From: Hyphomicrobiales bacterium
GTDB lineage: Bacteria > Pseudomonadota > Alphaproteobacteria > Rhizobiales > JAJFHB01
Length of the DNA: 64,000 bases
NCBI GenBank assembly: GCA_021775755.1
Contig: JAJFHE010000036.1
Location: forward strand, 52,198 to 116,197
Reading direction: 5' to 3'
The translations under genes and the position numbers were made by a program. Positions 17,548 to 31,329 of this stretch are shown in pieces. The notes below the pieces were generated by a model. It was not told where the DNA came from. It saw only the letters and a list, made by a program, of their open reading frames with translations, and made no database searches. Each line of letters begins with the position of its first letter. The stretch's first letter is position 1.

Positions 17548-17553
17548 CATGTC

Positions 17554-17815
17554 ATACCAAGGGCGGCAATTATTGACCCGTTTCACCGGGATGATTTTGC
17601 CCTCCGGCAAGGCGCGTACTGCGCCGCGGCACAGGTACCGTAAGCAGTACGCAACGCTGCGGGAGGGCAAAAGCACCCGGCCTGCGGTGGGCCATTCCGG
17701 CCCGCCGACCGCGTTGCGGGCCTTGTCTGATACACCGCATCGCACTGCGGCCCGCGCCTCGTCGAGCGAGCCGGAATGGCCCATGAAATGGGTCAATAAT
17801 TGCCGCCCTTGGTAT
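17554..17815. repeat. MITE/BIME-like structured element, copy 1 (32-bp terminal inverted repeats)
   Basis: ATACCAAGGGCGGCAATTATTGACCCGTTTCA (17554-17585) matches the reverse complement of 17784-17815 with 1 mismatch; TA at both ends; 108-nt core shared with the element at 31063. Confidence 0.8.
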
Positions 17816-18665
17816 CAGTCCGCTGCAATGTGCCGACCGGCATGGCATCGGCCACCCCGCGCGGTCGTGCAAGTTTCTGGTCCAACACGATCCAGTCGCC
17901 CTCGAACCCGTCTGAAGGGTCACGGCCCAGTGCCCTGATCGTGCTTTTATGCAGTTCGCGTTCTTCCTGCGAGATCAGGCGGCGGTAACGTATCGGGTGG
18001 GAGTTTACCGGCTCGACGACATAATCGAGCGCGCCGAGCGATCGGATGAATGCATCATCGTCGACATCATAGCGCGGTGCATAGACGAGCCATGGCCGCG
18101 CGCCGAGCGACGTGGCGGTCTCAAGCAGGCGAGCAAGGGCGGGCAGCAAGACGCTGAGCACGGCGCCCGCTTCATAGATAACGTGCGTGCCCTTCAGGAA
18201 CGCCCGCAGGTCTTCCCCCGCTTCCGCCTCCAGCAGATTGTCGTCAAAGCCTTTGTCGATGAGACCGCAGGCGCGGGCGTAGTTGACTGCCTGCGTTGCG
18301 ATGTCGAGGCCGGCGATGTCGAAGCGGTCTTCCCGGTACCGGCGCGAGCCGTAAAATCGCGCGTCCGCCCCGTGCAAATCCTCCGGGGCATCCGTGTCGT
18401 AATAGGAAAAGAGATCGTTCATCGTGACCGTGTGGCGCAGCATTGCGGCGACAGCGCCGAAACCGCAGGCAAAATCAAGAACGTGCAGTTTCGGTACGGA
18501 GAAGGCTTCGGCAATCGCGGCGTGATTGTCGCGCAGGAACCGTGACGTCACATCCGGCATTCTGTAGCCGGCCGGCTTGAGCGCACGATAATAGGCGCGC
18601 GGATCGGGCCGGTTGTAGATTTCATCAAAATCACGATGCGTATTGATGATAATAGTGTCGCTCAA
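17793..18665 (-). CDS. Class I SAM-dependent methyltransferase-like protein
   Basis: Motif I LHVLDFACGFG, motif II IAGLDIATQAV; N-terminal FDEIYNRPDPRAYY; TTG start. Confidence 0.6.
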   Translation of the reverse strand: MSDTIIINTHRDFDEIYNRPDPRAYYRALKPAGYRMPDVTSRFLRDNHAAIAEAFSVPKLHVLDFACGFGAVAAMLRHTVTMNDLFSYYDTDAPEDLHGADARFYGSRRYREDRFDIAGLDIATQAVNYARACGLIDKGFDDNLLEAEAGEDLRAFLKGTHVIYEAGAVLSVLLPALARLLETATSLGARPWLVYAPRYDVDDDAFIRSLGALDYVVEPVNSHPIRYRRLISQEERELHKSTIRALGRDPSDGFEGDWIVLDQKLARPRGVADAMPVGTLQRTDTKGGNY

Positions 18666-18709
18666 TGTGTCCCTGCCCTGTTGCCGCCCGCGAAACTACT
18701 GTGCGGTCC

Positions 18710-19945
18710 TCAAACGAGAAAGCCTGTTACCAAAAAACAGGCACAGGTTACCGCACCGACGACCGGCACCCAAGAGGGCACGGCAAACTGTGGAACCGGT
18801 CCCCCGCTTTGCGTGAACTTCAGCCGGACAAGCGCAAGATTAACCAGCGTGAAGATAACGAGCGCTACGCGCGAGGTCATTTCCGCCAGCCCTTCCAGCG
18901 GAAATCCCAGCGCCAGGACAAGCACCGCCGCAATTACGAGTGCGGTTGCAAAGAGCGGTGTACGGGTGCGCGGATCGACCGTTGAGAGAACCCGCGGCAG
19001 CGTTCCCATGGAGGACATGCCGTAGATCACCCGCGACACCATAATGACCTGAACGATCATCGTATTGAGGGTTGCGAATACGGCGATGACGGTGATCGCC
19101 ACCGGCGATGCACCGGTGACGCGGCGAAACACATCGGCGAGCGGCGCCTGGGAAGCCGCCAGATCGGCAGCGGGTAGCGACAGAACGGATACGGAAACCA
19201 CCAGCACATAAATCACTGTTGTCGCGACAAGCGTTGCAATGATGGCGATGGGCAGATCGCGTTTCGGGTTTCGCGCCTCTTCGGCAACGTTGACAAGGTC
19301 TTCAAATCCGATGAACGCGAAGAACGCGAGGAGACCGGCGGAAAATACCGAAAACCAGACCGTGAGATCGAGTGGCGGCACGAGGCTGCCGAACTGCAGG
19401 GCAATGCCGGGATTGGCGGCAAAGCCCGCAGCAATAATGACGCACAGGCCACCGATTTCAATGACCGTAAACAGCGCGGCGAGCATAACGGATTCAAGAA
19501 TTCCCCATGCGGCAACCAACCCGACCACCACAATAATCGCAGGGATCAGCAGCGTCGCCGGCAGGTCAACAAACTCGCGCAGGTAACCGGCGCACCCCAG
19601 CGCGATTGCGGAAGACGATATGGTGCCCGACGCAATGACCAGAGCGCCGGTTACAAAAGACAGGGAACTGGATCCGAACCCCTCGCGCACATAGGCCGCC
19701 TCGCCCGCGCTTACCGGAAATCGCGCCGACAACTCGCCGAAACTCAATGCCGTAAAGGCCATAACCACAGCCGACACGACAAACGACGCCGGGGCATAGA
19801 TACCGGCCCGCGCCGCCGTCGCCCCGACAAGCACGTAAATGCCGGCGCCCACCGTAACGCCGAGGCCGTAAAGCACAAGGAGCGGCAGGTTCAAAGACCG
19901 TTTGAGCGTGGCATCGGTGGCCGTCATGACAACGGGGGCCTCCAT
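18710..19945 (-). CDS. APC family amino-acid permease
   Basis: YGLGVTVGAGIY, SAGEAAYV, FAFIGFEDLVNVAEE; 11-12 TM segments. Start could be 19927. Confidence 0.92.
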   Translation of the reverse strand: MEAPVVMTATDATLKRSLNLPLLVLYGLGVTVGAGIYVLVGATAARAGIYAPASFVVSAVVMAFTALSFGELSARFPVSAGEAAYVREGFGSSSLSFVTGALVIASGTISSSAIALGCAGYLREFVDLPATLLIPAIIVVVGLVAAWGILESVMLAALFTVIEIGGLCVIIAAGFAANPGIALQFGSLVPPLDLTVWFSVFSAGLLAFFAFIGFEDLVNVAEEARNPKRDLPIAIIATLVATTVIYVLVVSVSVLSLPAADLAASQAPLADVFRRVTGASPVAITVIAVFATLNTMIVQVIMVSRVIYGMSSMGTLPRVLSTVDPRTRTPLFATALVIAAVLVLALGFPLEGLAEMTSRVALVIFTLVNLALVRLKFTQSGGPVPQFAVPSWVPVVGAVTCACFLVTGFLV

Positions 19946-20001
19946 GAGTCGATCGGAAGTGCTGACAAAGCTAACTCATAGATCGAACACCGATGGAATT
20001 C

Positions 20002-20015
20002 TTGATGTATGTCAA
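20002..20015. promoter_or_regulatory. FNR/FixK-type box upstream of the APC permease
   Basis: TTGAT-GTAT-GTCAA, one mismatch from TTGAT-N4-ATCAA, about 57 nt upstream of the permease start. Confidence 0.5.
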
Positions 20016-20109
20016 TGGTGTGAAAAGAGAGTGCTGCCTGCATGCTGCAACCATTGTTGCAGACTAAAGCAGCTGGCCGGCTTGTGTTTGACGGAGCTGT
20101 TTCGGGCAG

Positions 20110-21120
20110 TCAAGCGGTCTGCATTGCCGTCGTGCCGTAGGTCAGGCCGATGGACTTCAACCATCGCCGATACTCGACAGCGGTACGATCAGATGGCAGA
20201 TGCATTTCCGATCCCGCATCAATGGGCAGGAGCTTGGGGCGCTGGCTTTCGACTATCACCACGTCCTGCCCGATGATCGTATCAGTGAAGGAACTGACCT
20301 CTTCGGCAGTATCCAGTTCGTCGTAGTTCGACGCGAGCAGAACCCAGCCGATGCCGCGGTCCGGCGCGACGGGCGTCACCGTTAATACGATAGCTTCCGT
20401 CGCCGCAGAGCCGTCGGAGCGCTTGATTCCGAGATCCTTTTTCAACCGCGCAGTATACGGTCTCGGCACATAATACTCATACCCGACCTCCATACCCTCT
20501 ACATCGAGAGCATTGGTCGGCTTCGGCTGCCACGCCTTCACATTGGTTACGGCAACACCGTCCGGTCCGACCGTAACGTCGTAATCCATGACTTCGGTGT
20601 GCTCTTTGTCGCCGAGATAGTCAGTATGCACGAACGGAAAGTGCGAGATGTCGAGAAAGTTCTCGATGCCGCGCAAACCGCTGGTTTCGTATTGATAGCG
20701 CCCGCCAAAAAAAATCGTGTGGGTCCCTTCATCGGCTTCGGGAAAGGGCGGAACATCGTGCTTGGGCTCGCCAAGGCAGACCCAGATCAGGCCGTAAGCC
20801 TCCTTCACCTGAAAGGCGCGTGCGCGCGCCCTGGGCGTTGGCTGCTGGTTCTGGTGAGCAGGATAATGGACGCACTGCCCATCACCTTCATACTGCCAGC
20901 CGTGATAGGGACACACGAGACGGTTGTCGCAAACCTTGCCGAGTGAAAGTTTCACACCACGATGGGCGCACTTGTCTTCCCACGCGCAAAGTGCTTGCGA
21001 CGAGCGCCACAAGATGACGTCCGAGCCCAGAAGCTCGACCGGAAATAAACCACCTTCAGGGACATCGCCGCTTCGAGCGACAGCGTGCCAATCGTTCAGA
21101 ACAACCGGATCAACATGCAT
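20110..21120 (-). CDS. Rieske non-heme iron oxygenase, methylxanthine N-demethylase (NdmC-like)
   Basis: Rieske CAH...CPYH; mononuclear Fe ENFLDISHFPFVH and IIGQD; SGLRGIENFLD, TEVMDYDV and YRRWLKSIGLTYG recall Pseudomonas NdmC (from memory). Confidence 0.8.
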   Translation of the reverse strand: MHVDPVVLNDWHAVARSGDVPEGGLFPVELLGSDVILWRSSQALCAWEDKCAHRGVKLSLGKVCDNRLVCPYHGWQYEGDGQCVHYPAHQNQQPTPRARARAFQVKEAYGLIWVCLGEPKHDVPPFPEADEGTHTIFFGGRYQYETSGLRGIENFLDISHFPFVHTDYLGDKEHTEVMDYDVTVGPDGVAVTNVKAWQPKPTNALDVEGMEVGYEYYVPRPYTARLKKDLGIKRSDGSAATEAIVLTVTPVAPDRGIGWVLLASNYDELDTAEEVSSFTDTIIGQDVVIVESQRPKLLPIDAGSEMHLPSDRTAVEYRRWLKSIGLTYGTTAMQTA

Positions 21121-21196
21121 CGTACTTGCTCCAGGCTGAGGTACGGTCCCCGCCCGTGGGAAAGCTTCAGGCAGGAACCGAACGTCGCGTATTACG

Positions 21197-22279
21197 TCAT
21201 TCAGGCAAGGTTCCCTCGACGCCCTCTACGTACCAGTTCATGGAATAGAGATCGGCGTCGGGAATGACAGTTCCTGCAGCTATGCGCTCAGTGCCTGACT
21301 GGTCGCGCACTGGCCCCTGGAAGGGGTGGAATGTTCCCGCCACGATTTCAGCCTGACGGGCTTCGACCTGTGCCACCACATCCTGCGGAACCATTGGCCC
21401 CAACGGCGCGATGGCAAGCACACCCTGCGCCATGGAATCCCACATGGGCGCGTTGGTCCACGTTCCATCAATGACGCTGCCCGTCACACGGGTGTAGAAA
21501 TCGCCCCAGACCGGAATGACCGCGGTCAACTGCGAGTCCGGCCCGAACTGTGCCCGGTCGGAATGAAATCCGATAACCATTTTGCCGGCTTTTTGTGCGG
21601 CAAGGGTTGGCGCGGTCGAGTCCGTAACATGTGCGACGATATCCACACCTTGCGCAAACAGGGCATCCGACGCTTCGCGTTCACGGCCCGGGTCGTACCA
21701 GGAGTTGACTTCGATCACCTTGACTACGACGTCCGGATTCATTGCCCGTGCGCCCAGCGCAAACCCGTTTATGATCTGCAACACGGCGGGCAGCGGAAAC
21801 GACGACACATAGCCAATGGTTCCGGTTTTCGTCATCGCTCCGGCAACCATTCCGGCAAGGTATGACGGCTCATAGTAACGTAGCGAGTAGGTAGCCATGT
21901 TGTCGGCGGATTTATAGCCGTCGAGATGCATGAACGTGGCATCCGGATATAGGCCGGCCACTTCGAGCGTCTGATCCATGAACCCGAACGATGTCGTGTA
22001 AACGAGACCGTGCCCGTCCGCCGCGAGTTGCCGGATAACCCGAAGAGCGTCGGGCCCATAGGCGACATTTTCCACGATGGTTGCCGAGACCGCATCACCC
22101 AGCGCTTCTTCCATAACTCGGCGGCCTTTGTCATGTTCGGCTGTCCAGCCAGTTTCTCCCACCGGGCTGAAGTACACAAACCCGACTTTGAGAGGTTCAG
22201 CCACAGCACCGGTCGGCGCTCCGAGCAGACCGTAGGCGGCCAGCAAGGCGGCTATGCTATGCAGCAAGTATCTAAGCAT
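21197..22279 (-). CDS. BMP family (purine/nucleoside) ABC transporter substrate-binding protein
   Basis: KVGFVYFSPVGETGWT, TTSFGFMD, SWYDPGRE; signal peptide; GGAGG SD before ATG 22279. Confidence 0.93.
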   Translation of the reverse strand: MLRYLLHSIAALLAAYGLLGAPTGAVAEPLKVGFVYFSPVGETGWTAEHDKGRRVMEEALGDAVSATIVENVAYGPDALRVIRQLAADGHGLVYTTSFGFMDQTLEVAGLYPDATFMHLDGYKSADNMATYSLRYYEPSYLAGMVAGAMTKTGTIGYVSSFPLPAVLQIINGFALGARAMNPDVVVKVIEVNSWYDPGREREASDALFAQGVDIVAHVTDSTAPTLAAQKAGKMVIGFHSDRAQFGPDSQLTAVIPVWGDFYTRVTGSVIDGTWTNAPMWDSMAQGVLAIAPLGPMVPQDVVAQVEARQAEIVAGTFHPFQGPVRDQSGTERIAAGTVIPDADLYSMNWYVEGVEGTLPE

Positions 22280-22426
22280 TCTGTTTCCTCCATCACCAAT
22301 CGGCGGCGCACATGGCATTTTCCAACGCAACGCGCGCGGCCGAACCCCGCCGACATTACGGGGCACATGAACGCCCAGCGCAAGTGATGCCGCGGTTCAA
22401 TGCAGTTTGAGAAACAAATTGTGCGC

Positions 22427-23431
22427 TCAGGAAAAAGAATCGTCGTCTGTGACATTAGAAACAGCAACCGCCGAGCGGACATCACGTGGCGTTTTCCCAA
22501 AATGCCTGCGGAATGCCGTCGAAAAATGGGCCGTATTGCGAAATCCGCACTGCAGACCGACGGTTCCGATGGGAACAGCTGCAAGTTTTTGATCCTGCAA
22601 GGTGCGGTGGGCGCTGTTTAACCGGCGCTCACGTATCCAACTTCCCGGTGATGCGTTCTCACCGCGAAACAGTTCGTAGAGATATCGTTCCGATACATCG
22701 TTGGCATTGGCGATTTTCTCCACCGAAAGATCCGTATCGGACAGATGGTGTTCGATGTAATCCTTGATACGCCGTAGCCGCGCAAAGCGGACTGCGGTGG
22801 CCGCCTCCGATTGCTGGCCATGTTTGCCGTCCAGCGCAACCGCCAGGATATCTAGCATGCGGTGAGCCATCGCGGTTCGGGTGGAGTCGTCCAGACTGTC
22901 AATGTTCCGGGCCAGCGATATGAGAAAATCACAGGCAACCCTGAAAGCCGTATTGTCGATACGCAGAGCTTGTGCGCAGTAGTCCTCGGCCATTCCGACA
23001 CGCTCACGAAAAAGCTGCGCCGGTATCTTGAGCAAAAGCGCTCCGGCTTCCGCGGTGTGCAGATACTCGACCTCATCCATTGTTGAGTGCAGAGTTGCCG
23101 CTTTCCAGTCGACAACAACGTCGCGGCCGAACTGGGACATGTGAAACGTTCCCTGCGTCGCAATTGTCAGTATGTACGATTCCCGTTTTTCCCTCCCGAG
23201 CGTCCGCCGCGTTTGCCGACCCTTATAGGGATCACTCTGGATATGGCGCAGACCCAACGGGCCGAGTTCAGACGACACGACGCGAGCGTGAAAGTCAGAC
23301 CCCTTCGGCGTTGCAACCTGCATGGGGCTGCACAGACCCCACATAACCTCGGCCCACTGCTCAACGCGATGATCAGCCGGGATGCTGCCGGTATCGAGGC
23401 GAAGTGGCATGTTGATGGCTTTTTGCTCCAT
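22427..23431 (-). CDS. AraC family regulator (FeaR/NphR-like sensing domain)
   Basis: C-terminal SVEKIANANDVSERYLYELF and CGFRNTAHFSTAFRRHFGKTPRDVR. Confidence 0.9.
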   Translation of the reverse strand: MEQKAINMPLRLDTGSIPADHRVEQWAEVMWGLCSPMQVATPKGSDFHARVVSSELGPLGLRHIQSDPYKGRQTRRTLGREKRESYILTIATQGTFHMSQFGRDVVVDWKAATLHSTMDEVEYLHTAEAGALLLKIPAQLFRERVGMAEDYCAQALRIDNTAFRVACDFLISLARNIDSLDDSTRTAMAHRMLDILAVALDGKHGQQSEAATAVRFARLRRIKDYIEHHLSDTDLSVEKIANANDVSERYLYELFRGENASPGSWIRERRLNSAHRTLQDQKLAAVPIGTVGLQCGFRNTAHFSTAFRRHFGKTPRDVRSAVAVSNVTDDDSFS

Positions 23432-23505
23432 GCAAAAAGCTTAGTGCATCCGCACGGCAAAGGTAAATGGGGATGCCAGTCCGCCACGGGCGCCGCACGC
23501 GCCCG

Positions 23506-24429
23506 TCATGGCCGGAATGGCACGGCAAGGGACGCCGGTGTGTTGAGAAGTATTCTTGCCCGATCAGACGAGATGATAACCAGAACCGCAATTGTCGCGG
23601 CGTAGGGCAACATGGTGAGGAACTGCGTGGGAATTCCCAGATTGGCGCTCTGGATGTGAAACTGCAAGATTGTTACCCCGCCGAAAAGCAGCGCGCCGAA
23701 CATGATCCGCGTGGGGTTCCATGCCGCGAAAACGACAAGCGCCACGGCGATCCAGCCGCGCCCGGCCGTCATGTTTTCCACCCAGACCGGCGTGTAGTAG
23801 ACCGACAGGAAAGCGCCCGCGACCCCCGCCATTGCACCGCCGAACATGACAGCCAGATATCGAACACCCAGAACGCTGAAACCGATTGCGTGGGCCGCGT
23901 CCGGCACATCCCCTACGGCGCGCAACATCAAACCGGGACGGCTTTTGTAAAGAAACCAGCGAACGCAAAAGAACAGCACAATGGTCACGTAGGTCAGCGG
24001 TTCCAGACCAAGCAGGAAAGTTCCGAGAATTGTCACATCGCTGATGAAGGGCACCACTAACGGCCCGGAGACTTCAAGCGATACGCCCGTAAAACCCGAC
24101 CCGATATACGCGCTCACGCCAATACCGAAAATTGTCAGCGCCAGTCCTGTGGCAACTTGATTCGCCATGCAGCTTAAGGTGAGAAATGCGAACACAAGCG
24201 ACATCAACGCACCGGCGAGTGCGCCACACACAGTGCCTAACAATAAACTTCCAGATGAGGCCGCGACGGCAAACGCAACACTGGCACCAACCAGCATCAT
24301 TCCTTCGACGCCGAGATTGAGCACGCCCGAGCGCTCCGCAACCAGCTCGCCGAGGCTGGCTAGCATCAACGGCGTGGCTGCGGTCACGGTCGCAATGAGC
24401 AGTATGACGATGAAGTTGATTTCAGCCAT
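23506..24429 (-). CDS. Nucleoside/purine ABC transporter permease
   Basis: LGELVAERSGVLNLGVEGMML, AGRGWIAVALVVFAAWNP. Confidence 0.92.
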   Translation of the reverse strand: MAEINFIVILLIATVTAATPLMLASLGELVAERSGVLNLGVEGMMLVGASVAFAVAASSGSLLLGTVCGALAGALMSLVFAFLTLSCMANQVATGLALTIFGIGVSAYIGSGFTGVSLEVSGPLVVPFISDVTILGTFLLGLEPLTYVTIVLFFCVRWFLYKSRPGLMLRAVGDVPDAAHAIGFSVLGVRYLAVMFGGAMAGVAGAFLSVYYTPVWVENMTAGRGWIAVALVVFAAWNPTRIMFGALLFGGVTILQFHIQSANLGIPTQFLTMLPYAATIAVLVIISSDRARILLNTPASLAVPFRP

Positions 24430-25522
24430 TCCCATGCGGCTCCGATAGTCCAGAGGCCGTTGAGAATCCGGTCCACTTCAGTTTGTAGGAGATCAGCAAG
24501 TCCGACATCAGCAGGAAGAACAGAAGCGTGCCCTGAAAGATTCCGGTGATTGCGGACGGCACTCCCAGTGTTACTTTTGCCTGTTCGCCGCCGATGTAGA
24601 ACAGCGCCATCAGCAAACTTGCCAGCACGATACCCAGCGGGTTGAGGCGCCCGATATAGGCCACAATGATTGCGGCGAACCCGTATCCCGGCGACACGAC
24701 CTCGCGCAGTTTGCCGATGGTACCGGCCACCTCGACAACACCTGCCAGACCCGCACATGCACCTCCTATCAACAATCCCATCCAAATCATGCGGTGGCGG
24801 CCGAAGCCAGCGTAACGCGCCGCCTTGATCGCCTTACCTCCGACTTCCATCTGATACGCGAGATAACTGTGTCTGATGAACAGCCAGGCTGCGCACGCGA
24901 CAACGAGAGCGATGGGGAAACCCAAATTCAAGTGTGTCCCTGCAAGCAATCTTGGCAGGCGCGCAGCCTCATGAAGCGCGGTGGATTCGGGCCAGTTGAA
25001 CCCGGTCGGGCTTCGCCAGGGCCCATAAACCAAATAGCTGAGAAACAAACCCGCAATATACGTGAGCATCAGCGTTACGAGAATTTCATTGGCGTTGAAC
25101 CTGATGCGCAGGAACGCGGCGACAGCGGCCCAAGCCATGCCCCCCAGTGCGCCGGCGACAAACATCGCAGGCAGCACCCAAATACCGTCGAAGGCCTGAA
25201 GCTGGAGGGCCAGGCCGCCGCCGCAAATTGCGCCGGCAATGAGTTGCCCCTCGGCACCAATGTTCCAGACATTTGCGCGGAAGCCGATGGCGAGCCCGAT
25301 TGCGCAGAGCAATATGGGGGACGTTTTGAGACAAAGTTCTCCGATGCCGTAAAGATCACTCACCGGAACGATAAAGAAAACGTAGAATGCGTATGCCGGA
25401 TCATGGCCAATAAACAGGAAAAGCAAACTCCCCGCCGCCATCGCGAGCAGGGCGGAGAGGAGTGGCGCGGCGTGTTTCATGAAACGGGAAGTTTCCGCCC
25501 GGGGCTCGATTCTGAAGAGCAT
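24422..25522 (-). CDS. Nucleoside/purine ABC transporter permease
   Basis: FRANVWNIGAEGQL, NEILVTLML, PGYGFAAIIVAYIGRLNP; start chosen just after the ATPase stop. Confidence 0.92.
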   Translation of the reverse strand: MLFRIEPRAETSRFMKHAAPLLSALLAMAAGSLLFLFIGHDPAYAFYVFFIVPVSDLYGIGELCLKTSPILLCAIGLAIGFRANVWNIGAEGQLIAGAICGGGLALQLQAFDGIWVLPAMFVAGALGGMAWAAVAAFLRIRFNANEILVTLMLTYIAGLFLSYLVYGPWRSPTGFNWPESTALHEAARLPRLLAGTHLNLGFPIALVVACAAWLFIRHSYLAYQMEVGGKAIKAARYAGFGRHRMIWMGLLIGGACAGLAGVVEVAGTIGKLREVVSPGYGFAAIIVAYIGRLNPLGIVLASLLMALFYIGGEQAKVTLGVPSAITGIFQGTLLFFLLMSDLLISYKLKWTGFSTASGLSEPHGNG

Positions 25523-25526
25523 GACT

Positions 25527-27068
25527 TCAGGCTCCCGCCGCGTTCGCGGGGACCGGTTCATGCTCACCGCTCATCAAACGGCCGATTTCCGCAATGCTGG
25601 TCTCACCGACCGCACGGGCCTCGGAAATGCGCCCGTTGGCCATAACAGCAATGCGGTCGCACAGTTCGAGAAGTTCGTCGAGATCTTCTGAAATAACCAA
25701 TATGGCAACGCCGCTTGCGCGCAGTTTCAGCAAGATCTGACGAATGGACTGTGCGGCGCCCACATCCAAACCCCAAGTCGGCTGCGCGGCAACGACAACT
25801 CCTGGCGCCTGCAACAGTTCGCGGCCAACGATAAACTTCTGCAGGTTTCCGCCGGACAGAGCTTCAGCGCTTATTGCGTAAGTTGCCGGGCGCACATCGA
25901 ACTCCTCAATGCATTTGCTGGCAAACTGTCGTACCGCATCCATGCGGATCACGCCCCATCGAACAAACTTGCCGACCTGTACCGTCAGCAGACCGTTCTT
26001 GACCAGAGACATGCCGGGAACAGAGCCCTGCCCGAGCCGTTCTTCGGGAATGTACACGAGGCCAAGCCGGCGCCGGCGCGTCACGCCAAGGCGTGCAGCG
26101 GCGGTACCGTCAATGCATACGTTGCGTGCGCTGGGGCTTTGCCATTCGCCACTCACGGCTTCCAACAATTCAGCTTGTCCGTTGCCGGTGATGCCCGCGA
26201 TTCCAAGAATCTCTCCCCCAAAAACTGTCAGGTTTATGTTCTCAAGATCTACACCGTGAACCGTCTCGGCCCTGCGCGACAGCGACTCTACGATCAGGCG
26301 CTGCGCCCCACTTTCTGCGCTAGTGCCCTTCGAAAGGGAAGGCACGAGTGTCCCCAGCATGTGGTGCGCAAGGCTCGCATCTGTTTCCTGGCGCGGGTCA
26401 ACTGTCGCAACGACCTTGCCATGGCGAAGGATCGTTGCGGTGTCACACAGCTGGCGAATTTCATGGAGCTTGTGACTGATGTAGAGAATGCTGTGCCCGG
26501 CATCGGCGAGGCGTGTAAGCATCACAAAAAGTTCCTGAATGGCCTGTGGTGTGAGGACAGACGTCGGCTCATCCAAGATGAGGAGCTTTGGCTCCTGCAA
26601 CAGGCACCGGACAATTTCGACCCGCTGTCGCTCACCAACCGACAGCATACCGACGGTGGCATCCGGGTTAACCGGCAATCCGTACTCTTGCGAAAGCTCG
26701 GAAATCCGCGCTGCAAGTTCCTGCCGCCGGGTACCTTTGGGCGACAGCAGCAATATGTTTTCCAGCACGGTGAGGGCTGGAAATACAGAAAAGTGCTGGA
26801 ACACCATCCCGATACCGAGCCGACGCGCGTACGCCGGCGAGCCAACCACCTCGGGTTTTCCCTCCCACAAAATGGTACCGGCGTCGGGCCTCGCAACACC
26901 ATAAATGACTTTCATCAACGTGCTTTTTCCAGCTCCGTTCTCACCCAGAACAGCATGAATAGAGCCGGGCGCCACCGTTAGGCTTACGGCATCGTTGGCA
27001 ACCACTGTGGGGTACGACTTTGTGATTTTCCTCAGCTCTAACCGAGGTATCGATTTCGAGTTTGCCAC
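25527..27068 (-). CDS. Nucleoside/purine ABC transporter ATP-binding protein (two NBDs)
   Basis: Walker A GENGAGKST, LSVGERQRVEI, ILDEPT, second domain LSGGNLQK; probable GTG start at 27068. Confidence 0.93.
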   Translation of the reverse strand: MANSKSIPRLELRKITKSYPTVVANDAVSLTVAPGSIHAVLGENGAGKSTLMKVIYGVARPDAGTILWEGKPEVVGSPAYARRLGIGMVFQHFSVFPALTVLENILLLSPKGTRRQELAARISELSQEYGLPVNPDATVGMLSVGERQRVEIVRCLLQEPKLLILDEPTSVLTPQAIQELFVMLTRLADAGHSILYISHKLHEIRQLCDTATILRHGKVVATVDPRQETDASLAHHMLGTLVPSLSKGTSAESGAQRLIVESLSRRAETVHGVDLENINLTVFGGEILGIAGITGNGQAELLEAVSGEWQSPSARNVCIDGTAAARLGVTRRRRLGLVYIPEERLGQGSVPGMSLVKNGLLTVQVGKFVRWGVIRMDAVRQFASKCIEEFDVRPATYAISAEALSGGNLQKFIVGRELLQAPGVVVAAQPTWGLDVGAAQSIRQILLKLRASGVAILVISEDLDELLELCDRIAVMANGRISEARAVGETSIAEIGRLMSGEHEPVPANAAGA

Positions 27069-27237
27069 TACCCGATGCTCCGCTAACACCCCCACACGAC
27101 GCGGCAGACTGTGCGAAAACCTATGCCAGTACAACCGTGAAAATTCAACTTGACGCGGTATGGGCACACCGGTGCACGATCTGAAGCCCACTGTGCCAGC
27201 GTGATCCGATCCGCGGAAATACCATAAGGAATAGCCC

Positions 27238-28620
27238 ATGAACGACCAGGCGACGATGCCCAACTGGATACACGGAACCCTCATGCACGCGCCGCGGCTG
27301 GAGACGGTTGAAGTTGTGGAAAACGCCCTGATTGAGGTCGGTGGCGATGGAGAAATCAGGTCGGTCATGGCGCCGGCATCGCCGGACTATGATGCTCGGC
27401 TGAGGCAAGCAGCCGCAAGCGGCGCGTTCGTGAACCTCTCCAATGATCAGTATCTCCTGCCGGGTTTCGTTGACCTGCACATCCATGCCCCGCAATGGCC
27501 GCAGATGGGAAAGGCGCTCGATCTGCCGCTCCACGAATGGCTGCTTGAGTACACGTTTCCGCTTGAGGCCAGCTATCGCGACGTGGCGTTTGCGGAGCGC
27601 GCCTACCGCACACTCGTCGAAGCCCTGCTCGCCAATGGAACGACAACGGCGGTCTATTTCGCAACGGTGCATTTGGAGGCGTCTTTGCTGCTGGCGCAGA
27701 TCTGTCTGGAGAAAGGACAACGCGGGCTGGTCGGCAAGGTGGTGATGGACGACCCGGAGCAGTGCCCTGATTATTACCGCGACGCGTCGACGGACGATGC
27801 TCTGCGCGACACGGAACGCTTCGTGGAAGCTGTACGCGCGTTGCCCGGCAATACCGCCGCTACGGTCCGTCCAGTGGTCACGCCGCGGTTTATTCCAAGC
27901 TGCACGGATGCGGCCCTGGAAGGGCTCGGCGCCATAGCCCACGACAATGACTGCCACATCCAGACACATGTGTCGGAGAGCGACTGGGAGCACGGGTTCG
28001 TCATCGAGCGTACCGGACGCACAGATACCGATGCGCTCGACCGCTTCGGCCTTCTCACGCGGCATTCGGTTCTGGCTCACTCGAACTTCATAACCGATAC
28101 CGACATGGGTACGATCGCGCGCGCGGGCGCCGGCATCGCACACTGCCCATTGTCCAACATCTATTTCGCCAATGCGGCCTTTCCCTTGCGCGCCGCACTC
28201 GACAAAGGACTGCATGTCGGACTCGGCACGGATATCTCAGGCGGCGCGAGCCCGTCGGTTCTCGACACTTGCCGGCACGCCATTGCCTCATCGCGCGCTC
28301 TCGAAGACGGAACAGACCCGGCGGCGCCGGCAGATACGCGCGGCAGACCTGGATCGCGGGTCGGCTTCAATACCGCATTCTGGCTAGCAACCGCGGGCGG
28401 CGGCGAGGCTCTCGACCTCAAGGTCGGCAAGTTCGAACCCGGATACCGGTTCGACGCGATCATGATCGAAGCCAACAGGCCGGACAGCAATCTCGTCACA
28501 TGGGCTGACACCGATACGGGCGATGATGTCCTGCAGAAAATCGTCAACAATGCGGTGCGCCAGGATATCCGCAAGGTCTGGGTGGAAGGACGGCTTGTTG
28601 TCGACAAGGACGCAAGCTGA
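27238..28620 (+). CDS. guaD: Guanine deaminase (amidohydrolase family)
   Basis: PGFVDLHIHAPQ, NGTTTA, TPRFIPSCT, QTHVSES, GLGTDISGG. Confidence 0.9.
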   Translation: MNDQATMPNWIHGTLMHAPRLETVEVVENALIEVGGDGEIRSVMAPASPDYDARLRQAAASGAFVNLSNDQYLLPGFVDLHIHAPQWPQMGKALDLPLHEWLLEYTFPLEASYRDVAFAERAYRTLVEALLANGTTTAVYFATVHLEASLLLAQICLEKGQRGLVGKVVMDDPEQCPDYYRDASTDDALRDTERFVEAVRALPGNTAATVRPVVTPRFIPSCTDAALEGLGAIAHDNDCHIQTHVSESDWEHGFVIERTGRTDTDALDRFGLLTRHSVLAHSNFITDTDMGTIARAGAGIAHCPLSNIYFANAAFPLRAALDKGLHVGLGTDISGGASPSVLDTCRHAIASSRALEDGTDPAAPADTRGRPGSRVGFNTAFWLATAGGGEALDLKVGKFEPGYRFDAIMIEANRPDSNLVTWADTDTGDDVLQKIVNNAVRQDIRKVWVEGRLVVDKDAS

Positions 28621-28635
28621 GCGCGGCCGGCCTCC

Positions 28636-28649
28636 TTGACCTCTATCAA
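28636..28649. promoter_or_regulatory. FNR/FixK-type box upstream of hsp20
   Basis: TTGAC-CTCT-ATCAA, one mismatch from consensus, about 94 nt upstream of ATG 28743. Confidence 0.6.
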
Positions 28650-28742
28650 TCCCGGCGGCCCTCGTTCGCGGTCTACTGAGTGAACGACTGGCGTGGATGT
28701 TTCTGAAGCCGCCCGGGGGGCTTCAGCGGCAAGGAACCTTTT

Positions 28743-29234
28743 ATGGCGAAAAAATCATTGGCGCCAATGTTTCTGGACGCACCGGATGCTTGGCCCTTCA
28801 AGTCGCTGCACAATGAGATAGACCGCGTAATCAATGAGTTTTCACGCTCTTTGGTTCCGGGCGAAGCCGGCGAAGGCAAAGGCGTTTCGGGGAGCACGCT
28901 TGCTCCAAACATCGACATTGCCGAAACGGACACGTCGTTGGAAATAACGGCGGAGTTGCCGGGCATAGACGAAACCGACATTGACCTGACGGTCACGGAG
29001 AACGCCATCACGCTGAAGGCGGAGAAAAAGATGGACGCCGAACGCGAAGATAAAGGCTTCCATCTGGTGGAACGCCGTTACGGCATGTTCCAACGTCGCA
29101 TTGCACTGCCGTTCAAGGTGGACCCGGACAAGGTCGAGGCAAACTTTGGCAAGGGCGTCTTGAAAATCATAGTCGAAAAACCACCTGAAACTGAGAACTC
29201 GAGCCGGAAGATCGACATTTCGGCTGACGCTTGA
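28743..29234 (+). CDS. Hsp20/alpha-crystallin small heat-shock protein
   Basis: PNIDIAET...AELPGIDE, ERRYGMFQRRIALP, FGKGVLKI. Confidence 0.95.
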   Translation: MAKKSLAPMFLDAPDAWPFKSLHNEIDRVINEFSRSLVPGEAGEGKGVSGSTLAPNIDIAETDTSLEITAELPGIDETDIDLTVTENAITLKAEKKMDAEREDKGFHLVERRYGMFQRRIALPFKVDPDKVEANFGKGVLKIIVEKPPETENSSRKIDISADA

Positions 29235-29343
29235 AGTGGGCCGTAAAGATGCGTAACAAGTTAAAACCCTGCAGGAACTTCGCTTGACGCAGTCCTCGCA
29301 TTTTTCTACGTGCTGTGCGGCCCAACGCCACAAGGATATGCAT

Positions 29344-29673
29344 ATGACCGTCTTACGGAGCATCGCGCTCGGCTTCTTCCTGGTGTCCGTGCTTGGCGGC
29401 CCGGCCGGCGCCAACGGTACTTCGGAAAACGATCCCGGCCTGGCGTTCGTTGAGAAAAGCTGCGCGCGCTGCCATGCGATCGGCGAGCATGACGCAAGCC
29501 CCTTGAGCATCGCGCCGCCGCTGCGTGATATCGCCAACCGCTATCCGCTCGAGGGTCTGGAAGAGGCGTTCGCGGAAGGCATCGTCGTCGGCCATCCGGC
29601 AATGCCGGAGTTCGAACTTGAGCCCGATGAAATCTCCGACCTGATCGGCTATCTGGAGCGGTTTGTGAAGTAA
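29344..29673 (+). CDS. Small monoheme cytochrome c (periplasmic)
   Basis: Signal peptide, CARCH heme motif, distal Met in GHPAMPEF. Start could be 29338. Confidence 0.9.
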   Translation: MTVLRSIALGFFLVSVLGGPAGANGTSENDPGLAFVEKSCARCHAIGEHDASPLSIAPPLRDIANRYPLEGLEEAFAEGIVVGHPAMPEFELEPDEISDLIGYLERFVK

Positions 29674-29748
29674 ACCGGAAGCGGTATCGACGCCTTTACG
29701 CACCTCCAAGCGGCACCGATACGATGTGATTGGGCATTTGCGTCAGAG

Positions 29749-29762
29749 TTGATCTCCATCAA
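29749..29762. promoter_or_regulatory. Perfect FNR/FixK box upstream of the USP gene
   Basis: TTGAT-CTCC-ATCAA, exact consensus, 60 nt upstream of ATG 29822. Confidence 0.8.
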
Positions 29763-29821
29763 GGATTTGAGGTCGCCTATCTTCCATAGTTTTCGAACAC
29801 GATAACCAGGAGAATGGCGTC

Positions 29822-30664
29822 ATGCCCTACCGGACGATACTGGTTTACTTCAGCGGCGAAGATGATCGCGATGCGCTGATTTCGGCAGCAACTCAAATCG
29901 GCGCGGCCAATTCGGCACATGTGATCGGCGTCTACATTGTGCCGCCGGTACAGATAACACCGGCAGTCGGCATACACATCCCGCCTGAAATTCTCGACCG
30001 GCAGCGCGACTCTCACCGCGATCTCGCCAAGGAGATTGAAGGCAAGTTTACAGACGCCATGAAACGCGAAGGCCTGCTTAACGAATGGCGCACGCTGGAG
30101 GCTAACGGGCCGAGCGTATCGACACTCGGCGCCCAGCACGCGCGTATGTGCGATCTCGTGATCGCCAGCCAACCTGACTACGACGACGGCACGCCCGATC
30201 AGCAGGCCCTTCCCGCCGACCTCCTGCTCGAATGCGGCCGACCCGTTCTCCTCATACCAAGGGCTGGCAAGTTCCCGAAAATCGGTGGACGGATCTTCCT
30301 GTCCTGGAACGGAGAACGCGAAGCGGCGCGTGCGGCGTTTGACGCCCTGCCGTTCCTCGAAGCGGCCGATCACGTGCGCGTCCACTGGGTCAATCCGGAA
30401 GGCGAGTATAAGGGCACGCAAGCGGTTCCCGGATCGGAACTGGCAGCAACGCTCGCCCGCCATGGCGTTAAAACGGAAGCAGGGCATTCGGTTTGCGACG
30501 GCATGTCGGTGGGCGATGAAATTCTGTCCCGCCTCGCCGATTACGGCAGTGATCTTCTTGTGATGGGTGGATACGGGCATTCTCGCTTTCGCGAAATGGT
30601 ATTTGGCGGGGCGACCCGGCACATCCTGAGGCACATGACCGTACCGGTCCTCATGTCCCACTAA
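29822..30664 (+). CDS. Universal stress protein (tandem USP domains)
   Basis: MPYRTILV..., ECGRPVLLIP, DLLVMGGYGHSRFREMVFGGATRHILRHMTVPVLMSH. Confidence 0.95.
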   Translation: MPYRTILVYFSGEDDRDALISAATQIGAANSAHVIGVYIVPPVQITPAVGIHIPPEILDRQRDSHRDLAKEIEGKFTDAMKREGLLNEWRTLEANGPSVSTLGAQHARMCDLVIASQPDYDDGTPDQQALPADLLLECGRPVLLIPRAGKFPKIGGRIFLSWNGEREAARAAFDALPFLEAADHVRVHWVNPEGEYKGTQAVPGSELAATLARHGVKTEAGHSVCDGMSVGDEILSRLADYGSDLLVMGGYGHSRFREMVFGGATRHILRHMTVPVLMSH

Positions 30665-30697
30665 CGCATCACCGCCTGTACGAAGGAGACTCAGATA

Positions 30698-31066
30698 ATG
30701 AAACAGGTGCGCCTTGAGCTGGCCCGTGACAGCGATTTTCCCAATGGCAGTACACTGCACGGCTATGAATTTACCGCACCGCTCAACGCGGAAGGACATA
30801 TCGATCCGGAAGCCTGGCACAAGGACCGGGACCATTGCCGGGTCAAACGGTTCTGGGCCGGCGAGCCGGACGAAATCGGTCATGTGATCCGCAAGCCCGG
30901 CGGATCGTGGGCGTTTCACTACGATATTGACGGCGATGAGGACGACGACGAGTCGGGCTACCGATTCGGCCTTCACTGTTTTGTCCCCGGAGAGTACGTA
31001 TCGATCCGTGAACATGACGGCGAGATGCGGACGTTCCGGGTCGTTCAGGTTCGCGAGATCGCCTAA
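30698..31066 (+). CDS. Conserved hypothetical protein
   Basis: GAAGGAG SD, host-like codon usage, 122 aa with aromatic/acidic motifs (GYEFTAPL, WAFHYD, PGEYVSIRE); no function recognised. Confidence 0.8.
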   Translation: MKQVRLELARDSDFPNGSTLHGYEFTAPLNAEGHIDPEAWHKDRDHCRVKRFWAGEPDEIGHVIRKPGGSWAFHYDIDGDEDDDESGYRFGLHCFVPGEYVSIREHDGEMRTFRVVQVREIA

Positions 31067-31329
31067 ACCGTTTCTCGTTCATATGGAATCGCTTAACCGG
31101 TGTTTCGCGTCTGTTGGCAAGGCACGGATCCCGCCGTGGACCGGCTGTCCACAAGGGGGCCGTAACGCAGTCCAGCGGGCGCGAAACACCGGCCTTCGGT
31201 GGGCCAAAGCGGCCCACCGGCTGCGTTGCGGCGCTTGCCCGATACACCGCATCGCGCTTCGCGCCGCGCCTTACCGGATGAGCCGGTTTGACCCATCAAA
31301 CGTTTCCATATGAACGAGAAACGGTTTAG
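31063..31329. repeat. MITE/BIME-like structured element, copy 2 (26-bp perfect terminal inverted repeats)
   Basis: CTAAACCGTTTCTCGTTCATATGGAA (31063-31088) is the exact reverse complement of 31304-31329; core 31189-31296 aligns ungapped with 17677-17784. Confidence 0.8.

What the first reader, a model, noticed from the sequence alone, without database searches (positions are those of the whole stretch)
17554..31329. Family of ~265-bp structured elements: different terminal IRs, shared core with compensatory base changes
Seen: two elements (17554-17815 and 31063-31329), each bounded by its own long terminal IR (32 bp with 1 mismatch; 26 bp perfect) with TA at the ends. The cores 17677-17784 and 31189-31296 align ungapped over 108 nt with 84 identities by hand count. 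Changes compensate: GCGGGCC/GGCCCGC versus GCGGCGC/GCGCCGC, and GGGCCATT/AATGGCCC versus GGGCCAAA/TTTGACCC. Each element holds two oppositely oriented GCGTTG...GCCT(T/C) hairpin modules. Inference: selection acts on secondary structure rather than sequence, as expected for a non-autonomous mobile element, a REP-doublet-like unit or an unannotated structured RNA. The unrelated terminal IRs around a shared core are unusual for a MITE.
Basis: seen in the sequence. Interest (0 to 1): 0.72.

Follow-up and report, generated by a model that had tools for sequence, protein, structure and literature searches.

The report
Swappable-end MITEs with conserved double-hairpin body
The two ~265-bp elements are copies of an apparently undescribed family of small, non-coding jumping-DNA elements in marine Alphaproteobacteria that keep one folded two-hairpin body while repeatedly exchanging the end sequences that IS630-type transposases recognise.

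Summary
Both elements are dispersed repeats. Family e1 has about 40 copies, and 28 of 154 contig ends lie in it. Family e2 has about 14 copies, and a third family (e3) has 6.

Each element folds as a terminal stem plus two ~95-nt hairpin arms. In 48 non-redundant relatives, 69 of 87 base pairs show compensatory changes. The signal is the same on both strands, and copies show no orientation bias toward neighbouring genes. This fits DNA-level palindromy, not a strand-specific RNA.

- An e1 copy sits inside an e2 copy.
- Class I ends (TACCAA…) carry 3-bp TNA target duplications.
- Class II ends (GAGC…/GACC…) carry TA within YTAR.
- In a Roseibium chromosome, four 1061-bp IS630-family insertion sequences (ISs) and at least 12 267-bp MITEs share the same termini.
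- This genome holds an IS630-family IS whose end resembles e1's.

On a tree of the bodies, end class switched at least 4 to 8 times. I found no Rfam match and no paper describing the family. RNA-seq could not be checked.

The parts
17552..17554 (.). Left copy of the 3-bp target-site duplication (TCA) of e1.
   Evidence: The same TCA stands at 17815-17817. Across 85 class I elements, 53 have identical 3-bp TNA flanks, against 21.8 expected by permutation.
17555..17814 (+). e1: a 260-bp class I MITE (TACCAAGG…CCTTGGTA).
   Evidence: 23 full copies have a mean pairwise identity of 94%, and 28 contig ends lie in e1. One copy is inserted in an e2 copy at C42:56214-56475.
17555..17585 (.). e1 left terminal inverted repeat. 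It has an invariant outer block TACCAA, a variable middle, and an inner block TTGACCC.
   Evidence: It pairs with 17784-17814. It shares 19/32 identities with the end of the IS630-family IS at C29/C44; the maximum over 20,000 shuffles was 17.
17586..17680 (.). e1 hairpin arm A. It is related to the reverse complement of arm B.
   Evidence: Fold. The BLAST self-match of positions 33-127 against 135-230 on the opposite strand is 74%. Covariation in helix P2: 29 of 32 pairs show two-sided changes.
   Evidence: Fold. The nhmmer core profile hits about 80 loci in the genome and also matches itself on the reverse strand.
17711..17743 (+). Most conserved block, at the apex of arm B: GCGTTGCG-N3-CTTG-N3-GAT-N-C-N-CCGCATCGC.
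   Evidence: The exact pattern occurs in at least 109 stretches of other marine alphaproteobacterial genomes. It occurs in only 1 of 400 evenly drawn genomes of the class. It is the only part that distant relatives still match.
17815..17817 (.). Right copy of the TCA duplication of e1.
31064..31065 (.). Left TA of e2, lying within C-TA.
   Evidence: Class II elements are flanked by TA on both sides within YTAR (CTAG, TTAA, TTAG, CTAA).
31066..31326 (+). e2: a 261-bp class II MITE. The family consensus is GACCGTTTC…GAAACGGTC. This copy carries a private compensated change (G>A at 31066 and C>T at 31326), giving CTAA…TTAG.
   Evidence: 13 full copies have a mean pairwise identity of 89%. The private two-sided change is listed as pair (3,263).
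   Evidence: It is perfectly complementary to 31304-31329.
31097..31192 (.). e2 hairpin arm A.
   Evidence: Fold.
31198..31295 (.). e2 hairpin arm B (core), with the conserved apex pattern at 31223-31255.
   Evidence: Fold. It shares 84/108 identities with the e1 core.
31327..31328 (.). Right TA of e2.

Best explanation
Both elements are MITEs: small non-coding transposable elements moved in trans by IS630-family (HTH + DDE_3) transposases. They belong to one superfamily that is patchily spread in marine Alphaproteobacteria (Anderseniella and relatives, Rhodobiaceae, Roseibium/Labrenzia, Hoeflea, Aestuariivirgaceae, Hyphomicrobiaceae, Kiloniellales, Rhodospirillaceae).

**Anatomy (shown).** Each element is about 262-270 bp. 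It has a ~26-34-bp terminal inverted repeat, then two ~95-nt imperfect hairpin arms in opposite orientation around a short GC-rich centre. A single strand, DNA or RNA, of either polarity, folds into a three-way junction.

**Mobility (shown).**
- Copies are dispersed and carry target-site duplications. One e1 copy lies inside an e2 copy.
- Class I ends (TACCAA…TTGGTA) insert with a 3-bp TNA duplication.
- Class II ends (GAGC…/GACC…) insert at TA within YTAR.
- The ends match those of resident IS630-family ISs.

**Mechanism (inferred).** The transposase binds the outer ~15 nt, plus an inner TTGAC-type block, at both ends. It then cuts and pastes the element. In these GC-rich genomes the A+T-containing targets are often stop codons or gene ends.

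**Body and ends.**
- Shown: the body is conserved in pairing rather than in sequence, equally on both strands. The terminal module has been exchanged several times between two transposase clades while the body stayed.
- Inferred: the body acts at the DNA level as a cis module that helps mobilisation, for example by cruciform or hairpin geometry that brings the two ends together, or by offering a host-factor site.
- Inferred: new ends are acquired by recombination or abortive gap repair at the conserved boundary (…CATTTGAC / GTCAAATG…). This would re-arm the same body for whichever IS630 relative is resident.

In this genome e1 is the young family, and its likely partner is the IS at C29/C44. 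e2 and e3 are older and have no partner in the assembly.
For: **Repeat families and activity**
- 28 of 154 contig ends lie in e1.
- e1 is nested in an e2 copy. The flanks are best read as a TAA duplication, assuming that e2 copy differed from the e2 consensus by one extra base and one substitution at the junction.

**Target-site duplications**
- Class I: 53 of 85 elements have identical 3-bp flanks, against 21.8 by permutation (0 of 5000 permutations reached 53). The flanks are TAA, TTA, TCA or TGA.
- Class II: TA on both sides in 35 of 52, with outer bases C..G or T..A.

**Partner ISs**
- The Roseibium chromosome OZ246005.1 holds 4 copies of a 1061-bp IS630-family IS and at least 12 inverted pairs 265-267 bp apart. 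All share TAGAGCATCGGGCG.
- Five of those short elements were fetched. They are 267 bp, match the core profile (E 1e-13 to 1e-15), and match the IS end in 24 of the first 28 nt.
- A class I-type IS of 1178 bp (L131/L134) has ends ATACGCACGGCA…TGACCC. Both copies are flanked by TAA, and Pfam finds HTH_29/32/33 + DDE_3.
- This genome's IS at C29:1-225 and C44:1-225 (99% identical) ends …GGTCAAAGGTGATCGCCGATGGTA|TTA and |TAA. That end shares 19/32 identities with the e1 end (shuffle maximum 17). Its transposase tail is 69% identical to L131's and about 30% identical to class II ISs.

**Structure**
- Folds.
- 87 consensus pairs are 93% canonical, against 68% shuffled and about 37% slid. 69 pairs show two-sided changes.
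- Strand symmetry: G:T 299 vs A:C 290 on the union of pairs; the plus strand folds better in 24 of 48.

**End swapping**
- The body tree needs 8 changes of end class, of which at least 4 are forced by strongly supported branches.
- In one Anderseniella MAG, bodies that are 86% identical carry ends that are 23-40% identical.
- In relatives G004 and G002, e1 positions 18-245 match at 85-91%, but the outer ~17 nt lie outside the alignment.
Against: - No transposition was observed and nothing here is experimental.
- The body of the IS at C29/C44 is missing from the assembly (both copies start at contig ends). Its end is only 19/32 identical to e1's, so cross-mobilisation is plausible but unproven.
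- No partner for e2 or e3 was found. The other IS630-type IS in this genome (C22) ends CTAGTCATG…, which is unlike them.
- A 3-bp TNA duplication is not what IS630-family elements are known for; established knowledge gives TA. About a third of class I copies have non-identical flanks.
- The nested insertion fits TAA only if the host e2 copy differed from the e2 consensus by one inserted base and one substitution at the junction.
- The cis role proposed for the body is inference. Young e1 copies decay almost equally in paired and unpaired sites (0.031 vs 0.038 substitutions per site per copy). So nothing shows selection on copies once inserted.
- Hairpin-templated repair could keep palindromes paired without any function.
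- The wider sample was collected with a pattern in the arm B apex, so conservation of that block within the 48-sequence set reflects how the sample was drawn.
Confidence: 0.88

Rival explanations
1. The elements are MITEs, but the paired body has no cis function. Palindromy is kept by a mechanism rather than by selection. Candidates are hairpin-templated mismatch correction or gap repair when a single strand folds (lagging-strand replication, repair of excision gaps), or recent common descent plus horizontal spread.
For: - The signal is the same on both strands.
- Inserted e1 copies decay at nearly the same rate in stems and loops.
- Private two-sided compensated changes in single copies exceed chance: 8 observed vs 1.5 expected in e1, and 11 vs 2.7 in e2. 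In-situ correction would produce this.
- The element's terminal stem is longer and more perfect (26-34 bp) than the inverted repeats of the partner ISs, which match over about 15-25 nt.
Against: - Length is held within about 261-270 bp in 68 of 85 elements.
- Unpaired blocks are conserved in sequence across orders: the centre CCGGCCTTCGGTGG, the bulged GCGTTGCG/CGCGCC motif, and the arm B apex. Pairing-directed repair does not explain that.
- In e2, stems change 2.2 times more slowly than loops.
- The two arms are only about 74% complementary to each other, yet each stays self-paired.
Confidence: 0.3
2. The conserved body is kept by host-level selection on RNA. When read through, the element gives a very stable hairpin RNA in either orientation. 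That RNA would act as a terminator, a 3'-end stabiliser or an RNase III target, as reported for Correia and ERIC elements.
For: - RNA folds are very stable, at -160 to -179 kcal/mol.
- Many copies lie at gene ends, and targets often coincide with stop codons. The e2 end holds the TAA of the 122-codon ORF at 30698-31066, and e1 supplies the last 8 codons and the stop of ORF 17793-18665.
- The near-symmetry would let either orientation work.
Against: - Copies show no orientation bias: 18 co-oriented vs 28 anti-oriented in tandem gene contexts, from crude gene calls.
- Copies also lie between divergent genes (12-14 of 96).
- Young copies decay equally in stems and loops.
- There is no Rfam family.
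Confidence: 0.12
3. It is a multi-copy structured non-coding RNA gene whose function lies in one strand, with the repeats being gene copies.
For: Covariation is strong. On the plus strand alone, G:U appears to outnumber A:C by 295 to 104.
Against: - That excess is an artefact of predicting pairs on one strand only. The minus strand gives the same excess (268 vs 76), and the pooled pairs give 299 vs 290.
- Copies carry target-site duplications and IS630-type ends.
- One copy is nested in another.
- There is no orientation bias and no Rfam hit.
Confidence: 0.03
4. It is a REPIN-like doublet of REP hairpins spread by a RAYT (HUH/Y1) transposase.
For: The element has two inverted hairpin modules. 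One Y1_Tnp locus exists in the genome, at C50:2037-2657.
Against: - Copies have TNA and TA target duplications and 26-34-bp terminal inverted repeats that match IS630-family IS ends.
- Modules are about 95 nt rather than about 20-25 nt.
- Only a single Y1_Tnp locus was found. I did not inspect the sequence around it for element copies.
Confidence: 0.02

Closest known systems
Bacterial MITEs mobilised by IS630-family transposases (for example RUP of Streptococcus pneumoniae with IS630-Spn1, and Nezha of cyanobacteria; from my own knowledge)
   Same: They are short, non-coding and multi-copy. Their terminal inverted repeats resemble the ends of a resident IS630-family IS. Class II elements here insert at TA.
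   Different: One ~200-bp double-hairpin body is shared across many families and several orders, while the ends differ. Two transposase clades are used. Class I gives a 3-bp TNA duplication rather than TA.
Correia elements (NEMIS) of Neisseria and ERIC/IRU elements of enterobacteria (from my own knowledge)
   Same: They are imperfect palindromes that fold as long hairpins, insert at TA, often sit at gene ends, and can act at the RNA level.
   Different: No sequence likeness was tested or seen. Those elements are 100-155 bp single hairpins, whereas these are ~265 bp with two arms. A partner IS is identifiable here.
Stowaway/Tc1-mariner-derived MITEs of eukaryotes, including birth by microhomology-mediated miniaturisation (the title of PMC3814204 was seen; the paper was not read)
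   Same: They belong to the same transposase superfamily, have a TA target, and their internal sequence is unrelated to the autonomous element.
   Different: There, families share ends and differ inside. Here the inside is shared and the ends are exchanged.
REPINs (REP doublets) with RAYT transposases
   Same: They contain two inverted hairpin modules, and their pairing is kept by compensatory change.
   Different: REPINs have no target duplications or IS-type terminal repeats, and their modules are about four times shorter. The elements here fail those tests.

Membership tests
MITE (non-autonomous DDE transposable element) | Small, with no coding capacity of its own. | tested here: met
   Elements are 260-270 bp. 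The ORF lists for the two window copies show only short ORFs that start or end in unique flanking DNA. Conservation of any such ORF across copies was not tested.
MITE (non-autonomous DDE transposable element) | Terminal inverted repeats. | tested here: met
   The repeats are 26-34 bp in nearly all of 85 elements.
MITE (non-autonomous DDE transposable element) | Target-site duplication. | tested here: met
   Class I shows TNA in 53 of 85 elements, against 21.8 by permutation. Class II shows TA in YTAR.
MITE (non-autonomous DDE transposable element) | Many dispersed copies, and evidence of insertion (filled vs empty site). | tested here: met
   There are about 80 loci. e1 lies inside an e2 copy, with other e2 copies serving as the empty site. 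The fit is not perfect: one extra base and one substitution at the junction. Orthologous empty sites in sister strains were not available.
MITE (non-autonomous DDE transposable element) | Ends match an autonomous IS in the same genome. | tested here: met
   In Roseibium OZ246005.1, 4 ISs of 1061 bp and at least 12 MITEs share TAGAGCATCGGGCG, with 24 of the first 28 nt matching. For e1 in this genome the match is partial: 19/32 to the IS at C29/C44.
IS630/Tc1-mariner-dependent element | The partner encodes an HTH + DDE_3 transposase. | tested here: met
   DDE_3 hits come. HTH_29/32/33 + DDE_3 were found in L131. The C29 transposase tail is 69% identical to L131's.
IS630/Tc1-mariner-dependent element | TA duplication at an NTAN target. 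| tested here: inconclusive
   The feature is met for class II, including e2. It is not met for class I, including e1, which fits a 3-bp TNA duplication. A parse with a 1-bp duplication inside T-N-A cannot be excluded from sequence alone.
REPIN / REP-RAYT | No target duplication, and a RAYT gene flanked by the repeats. | tested here: not met
   Duplications are present. Only one Y1_Tnp locus exists, and its flanks were not inspected for copies.
Any Rfam RNA family | Covariance-model match. | tested here: not met
   No hit at the gathering threshold in the window. No hit at E<=1 on the e2 region.
Rhizobial repeats (RIME, Sm-repeats) and Brucella Bru-RS | Sequence likeness to the described repeats. 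| not testable with these tools
   The reference sequences were not at hand. As an indirect test, blastn of e1 and e2 against 72,556 plasmids, which I assume (not checked) include rhizobial megaplasmids, gave only a 63-nt hit in a Thalassospira plasmid.

The most novel reading that the evidence does not exclude
The ~200-bp double-hairpin body is a portable cis-acting DNA-structure module that IS630-family transposition depends on or is boosted by. It might work by cruciform extrusion that brings the two ends side by side, or through a conserved protein site in the arm B apex. It survives by repeatedly capturing the ends of whichever IS630 relative is resident, including a clade that makes 3-bp TNA duplications. 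That would make it a hyper-parasite that switches transposases rather than a simple deletion derivative of one IS.
Probability: 0.25. Interest if true: 0.7.

Novelty: new variant of a known kind. Interest (0 to 1): 0.5.

Why it matters
**Practical**
- The family breaks assemblies: 28 of 154 contig ends here lie in e1.
- It sits on stop codons and rewrites gene ends.
- An e1 copy on a contig binned as Phycisphaerales (L074) suggests it can mislead metagenome binning, though I did not follow that up.
- It is unannotated in many marine alphaproteobacterial genomes, so a model for it would improve annotation.

**Conceptual**
MITE families are usually defined by shared ends with unrelated interiors. 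Here the interior is shared across orders and the ends are exchanged between two IS630 clades. This offers a tractable case for two questions: how non-autonomous elements change the transposase they exploit, and whether DNA secondary structure is itself a requirement for mobilisation. It also points to an IS630-family clade with a TNA duplication.

Tried and rejected
- **Rfam.** No hit at the gathering threshold in the window, and no hit at E<=1 on e2.
- **Plasmid collection.** e1 gave no hit. e2 gave one 63-nt hit in a Thalassospira marina plasmid.
- **IS5-type partners, suggested by the TNA duplication.** Two single-copy DDE_Tnp_1_2 genes (C45, C55) have no matching ends and no clear inverted repeats.
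- **RAYT.** Only one Y1_Tnp locus was found.
- **Strand-specific RNA from G:U excess.** The 295 vs 104 excess on the plus strand disappeared once pairs predicted on the minus strand were included (299 vs 290). It was an artefact of one-strand structure prediction.
- **Orientation bias toward genes.** None was found. My gene caller is crude and is wrong at least for the left flank of e2, where Pfam shows that the + strand Usp gene is the real one.
- **Viral contigs.** The core pattern is absent.
- **Literature.** Four keyword searches found nothing relevant. A fifth, for an IS630-family TNA duplication, also found nothing. A search for six sequence strings of the element found no paper.
- **Naming the organism.** An exact protein look-up found no record.
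- **TA-duplication models for class I.** With the element taken as CCAAGG…CCTTGG or as ATACC…GGTAT, these models fit neither the nested insertion nor the flank statistics.

Full report
**1. The observation**

Element e1 (17554-17815) has 32-nt ends that pair with one mismatch. Element e2 (31063-31329) has 26-nt ends that pair perfectly. The quoted compensating stems are present.

Each element folds into a terminal stem, made by the two ends, plus two ~95-nt hairpin arms.
- As RNA, the energies are -179.1 and -160.2 kcal/mol, with z -14.9 and -11.9.
- As single-stranded DNA, the e1 plus strand and the e2 minus strand give z -14.7 and -10.4.
- No shuffle of 200 folded as well.

**2. They are repeat families**

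The window is C30:52198-116197 of a 77-contig, 5.47-Mb assembly.
- **e1:** 23-27 full-length copies with a mean pairwise identity of 94%. Many further half copies are simply contig ends: 28 of 154 contig ends stop inside e1, so the true number is near 40.
- **e2:** 13-16 copies with a mean identity of 89%.
- **e3:** a third family of 6 copies with ends CTAGAGCCCATTTGATGAATTC…, carrying the same core.

An nhmmer profile of the core finds about 80 loci. It also matches itself on the opposite strand, so the core is itself a palindrome. Arm A is related to the reverse complement of arm B at about 74%.

**3. Distribution**

Relatives in the same family carry full-length e2-like copies at 77-86% identity. 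Several other families of the same order carry partial matches. The e1 body (positions 18-245) is 85-91% identical in two relatives, but the outer ~17 nt fall outside the alignment.

An exact 25-base pattern from the arm B apex hit at least 109 stretches before the scan reached its limit. The hits lie in marine Alphaproteobacteria: Anderseniella, Rhodobiaceae, Roseibium/Labrenzia, Hoeflea, Aestuariivirgaceae, Hyphomicrobiaceae, Kiloniellales, Denitrobaculum and Rhodospirillaceae MAGs.

The spread is patchy. Only 1 of 400 evenly drawn genomes of the class has the pattern, and no viral contig has it.

Nearly all hits are elements of 261-270 bp (68 of 85) with 26-34-bp terminal inverted repeats. 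First-stage notes on three other genomes had described look-alike 262-268-bp elements. I treated those notes as leads only.

**4. Two kinds of ends**

*Class I* reads ATACCAA, then a variable stretch, then TTGACCCATTTGA. The outer block is invariant, the inner TGACC-type block is largely conserved, and the middle differs between lineages yet stays complementary between the two ends.

*Class II* reads (C/T)TA-GAGC or GACC, then a variable stretch, then CATTTGA.

Flanks:
- For class I, with the element taken as TACC…GGTA, 53 of 85 copies have identical 3-bp flanks. Permutation gives 21.8, and 0 of 5000 permutations reached 53. The flanks are TAA, TTA, TCA or TGA, which is a TNA duplication.
- The e1 copy inside an e2 copy at C42:56214-56475 reads …GCCGT-TAA-[e1]-TAA-GGCAG, where other e2 copies read …GCCG-TAA-CGCAG. 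This fits TAA with one extra base and one substitution, and it fits no TA model.
- Class II copies are flanked by TA within CTAG, TTAA, TTAG or CTAA.

For the window copies this gives two readings:
- e1 runs 17555-17814 between TCA at 17552-17554 and TCA at 17815-17817.
- e2 runs 31066-31326 between TA at 31064-31065 and TA at 31327-31328.

**5. Partner transposases**

IS5-type genes were tested first, because TNA duplications are typical of that family. Their ends do not match.

DDE_3 (IS630-family) hits in this genome lie at contig starts. The IS at C29:1-225 and C44:1-225 is 99% identical between the two copies. It ends …GGTCAAAGGTGATCGCCGATGGTA, followed by TTA and TAA. Its end shares 19 of 32 positions with the e1 end, in the blocks ATACCA, GGCG and TTGACC. 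No shuffle of 20,000 exceeded 17.

In an Aestuariivirgaceae chromosome, a complete 1178-bp IS (L131/L134) has class I-type ends (ATACGCACGGCA…TGACCC). Both copies are flanked by TAA, and it encodes HTH_29/32/33 plus DDE_3. The C29 transposase tail is 69% identical to it, and only about 30% identical to class II ISs.

For class II the evidence is canonical. In the Roseibium chromosome OZ246005.1, the string TAGAGCATCGGGCG occurs 42 times, against 0 for the control. It marks four inverted pairs that bound 1061-bp IS630-family ISs and at least 12 inverted pairs 265-267 bp apart. Five of those short elements were fetched. They are 267 bp, match the core profile (E 1e-13 to 1e-15), and match the IS end in 24 of the first 28 nt.

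So both end classes are ends of IS630-family ISs, belonging to two transposase clades. No partner for e2 or e3 is present in this incomplete assembly. That fits their greater age.

**6. Structure conservation**

I aligned 48 elements, non-redundant at 90% identity. The consensus fold has 87 pairs.
- 93% of cells are canonical, against 68% after shuffling partners within columns and about 37% after sliding partners.
- 69 pairs show two-sided (compensatory) changes: 24 of 28 in the terminal stem, 29 of 32 in arm A and 16 of 27 in arm B.

A G:U excess on the plus strand (295 vs 104) was an artefact. Predicting pairs on the minus strand gives the same excess there (268 vs 76), and pooling both sets gives G:T 299 vs A:C 290. 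The plus strand folds better in 24 of 48 elements.

In tandem gene contexts, 18 copies are co-oriented and 28 are anti-oriented. The gene calls behind this are crude and are wrong at least once.

The constraint is therefore symmetric, as expected for DNA-level palindromy and not for a one-strand RNA.

Within families:
- e1 copies change at 0.031 substitutions per site per copy in stems and 0.038 in loops.
- e2 copies change at 0.053 in stems and 0.119 in loops.
- Two-sided compensated changes exceed chance: 8 vs 1.5 in e1, and 11 vs 2.7 in e2.

Either active lineages are selected for pairing, or folded single strands are corrected. The data do not decide between these.

**7. End swapping**

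A maximum-likelihood tree was built from the bodies alone, with the ends excluded. It needs 8 changes of end class, and at least 4 of them are forced by strongly supported branches.

In one Anderseniella MAG, L024 (class I) and L041 (ends TTAAAGCG…) have bodies that are 86% identical and ends that are 23-40% identical. e1 and its relative L012 differ at 7 of 11 positions in the variable middle of the end (by eye), with the other end changed to match. Their bodies are 90% identical.

The boundary block CATTTGAC/GTCAAATG is shared by all classes. I infer that exchange happens there, by recombination or by abortive gap repair that uses a resident MITE as filler. This is not shown.

**8. Comparison with known systems**

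The elements work like IS630-dependent bacterial MITEs and meet all the MITE criteria tested.

They differ from described cases in three ways:
- the interior is conserved across orders while the ends are exchanged;
- two transposase clades are used;
- class I gives a TNA duplication, which established knowledge does not associate with IS630-family elements.

They fail the REPIN/RAYT tests and match no Rfam family. Six literature searches, including one for strings of the element's own sequence, found no description. Absence from that library is not proof of novelty.

**9. Local context**

- e1 lies 7 nt after the stop of a DMSP-lyase-like cupin gene (16873-17547). It supplies the last 8 codons and the stop of the convergent ORF 17793-18665.
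- e2 follows a Usp-family gene (29822-30664) and a 122-codon ORF whose TAA stop lies in the element's CTAA end. It precedes a short-chain dehydrogenase gene at 31417-32187.

**10. Limits**

- The wider sample was drawn with an arm B pattern.
- The assembly is a draft.
- Gene calls for the orientation test are crude.

**Verdict**

It is an apparently undescribed, IS630-dependent MITE superfamily with a conserved double-hairpin body and exchangeable ends.

Noticed in passing
G000 C45:57148-57182, C38:136558-136592, C3:8551-8585, C57:53199-53233 and about 6 more (outside the window): About 10 solo 35-bp palindromes read CTAGACCGTTTC-NNN-TTCATATG-GAAACGGTCTAG. They correspond to the first 23 nt of the e2 left end joined to the last 12 nt of the right end at a shared GAAACG. 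They look like recurrent collapse of the element by deletion between 6-nt direct repeats, or a minimal mobile form.
   Followed up: partly
G000 C30:8579-8601 (outside the window), C17:54032, C19:47615, C36:18968, C71:12704, C73:35860 and others: About 12 solo fragments consist of the first 15-23 nt of the e1 end (ATACCAAGGGCGGCAATTAT), each preceded by tt, ta or ct and followed by unrelated unique DNA. No inverted partner lies nearby. They may be remnants of deletion or of one-ended events.
   Followed up: partly
L131:1377-2554 and L134:1378-2554 (Aestuariivirgaceae OZ244154.1); G000 C29:1-225 and C44:1-225: A clade of IS630-family (HTH + DDE_3) ISs has TAC… ends. It appears to make 3-bp TNA duplications instead of the TA expected for the family. 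L131 has two ORFs (185 and 156 aa), suggesting a frameshift.
   Followed up: partly
window 17793-17817: The minus-strand ORF 17793-18665 takes its last 8 codons (T D T K G G N Y) and its TGA stop from the e1 right end. The insertion therefore rewrote the C-terminus of a 290-codon ORF with no Pfam match.
   Followed up: partly
L136, L138, L140, L145, L149 (Aestuariivirgaceae OZ244154.1): A 1241-bp IS630-type IS with CTAGT… ends sits directly against the terminal CTAG of a class II MITE in several loci. Either the MITE end is a preferred target or the pair moves as a unit.
   Followed up: no
L074 (JAJDDH010000211.1, labelled Phycisphaerales MAG OFTM80): A 5.4-kb contig binned as Planctomycetota carries an e1 copy whose displayed part is nearly identical to the window's copy. 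It comes from the same study as Hyphomicrobiales MAGs that carry the family, so the contig is probably mis-binned.
   Followed up: no
G000 C13:77367-77526 and C14:108683-108843: Two shortened e1 derivatives were seen. One is a 160-bp one-armed form (both ends plus arm B only). The other is a 161-bp internal deletion (positions 1-141 joined to 236-262).
   Followed up: no
window 29777-31015 (minus strand): This 412-codon open frame is probably spurious. The overlapping plus-strand ORF 29822-30664 has a Usp domain, and the long minus frame has no Pfam match.
   Followed up: partly
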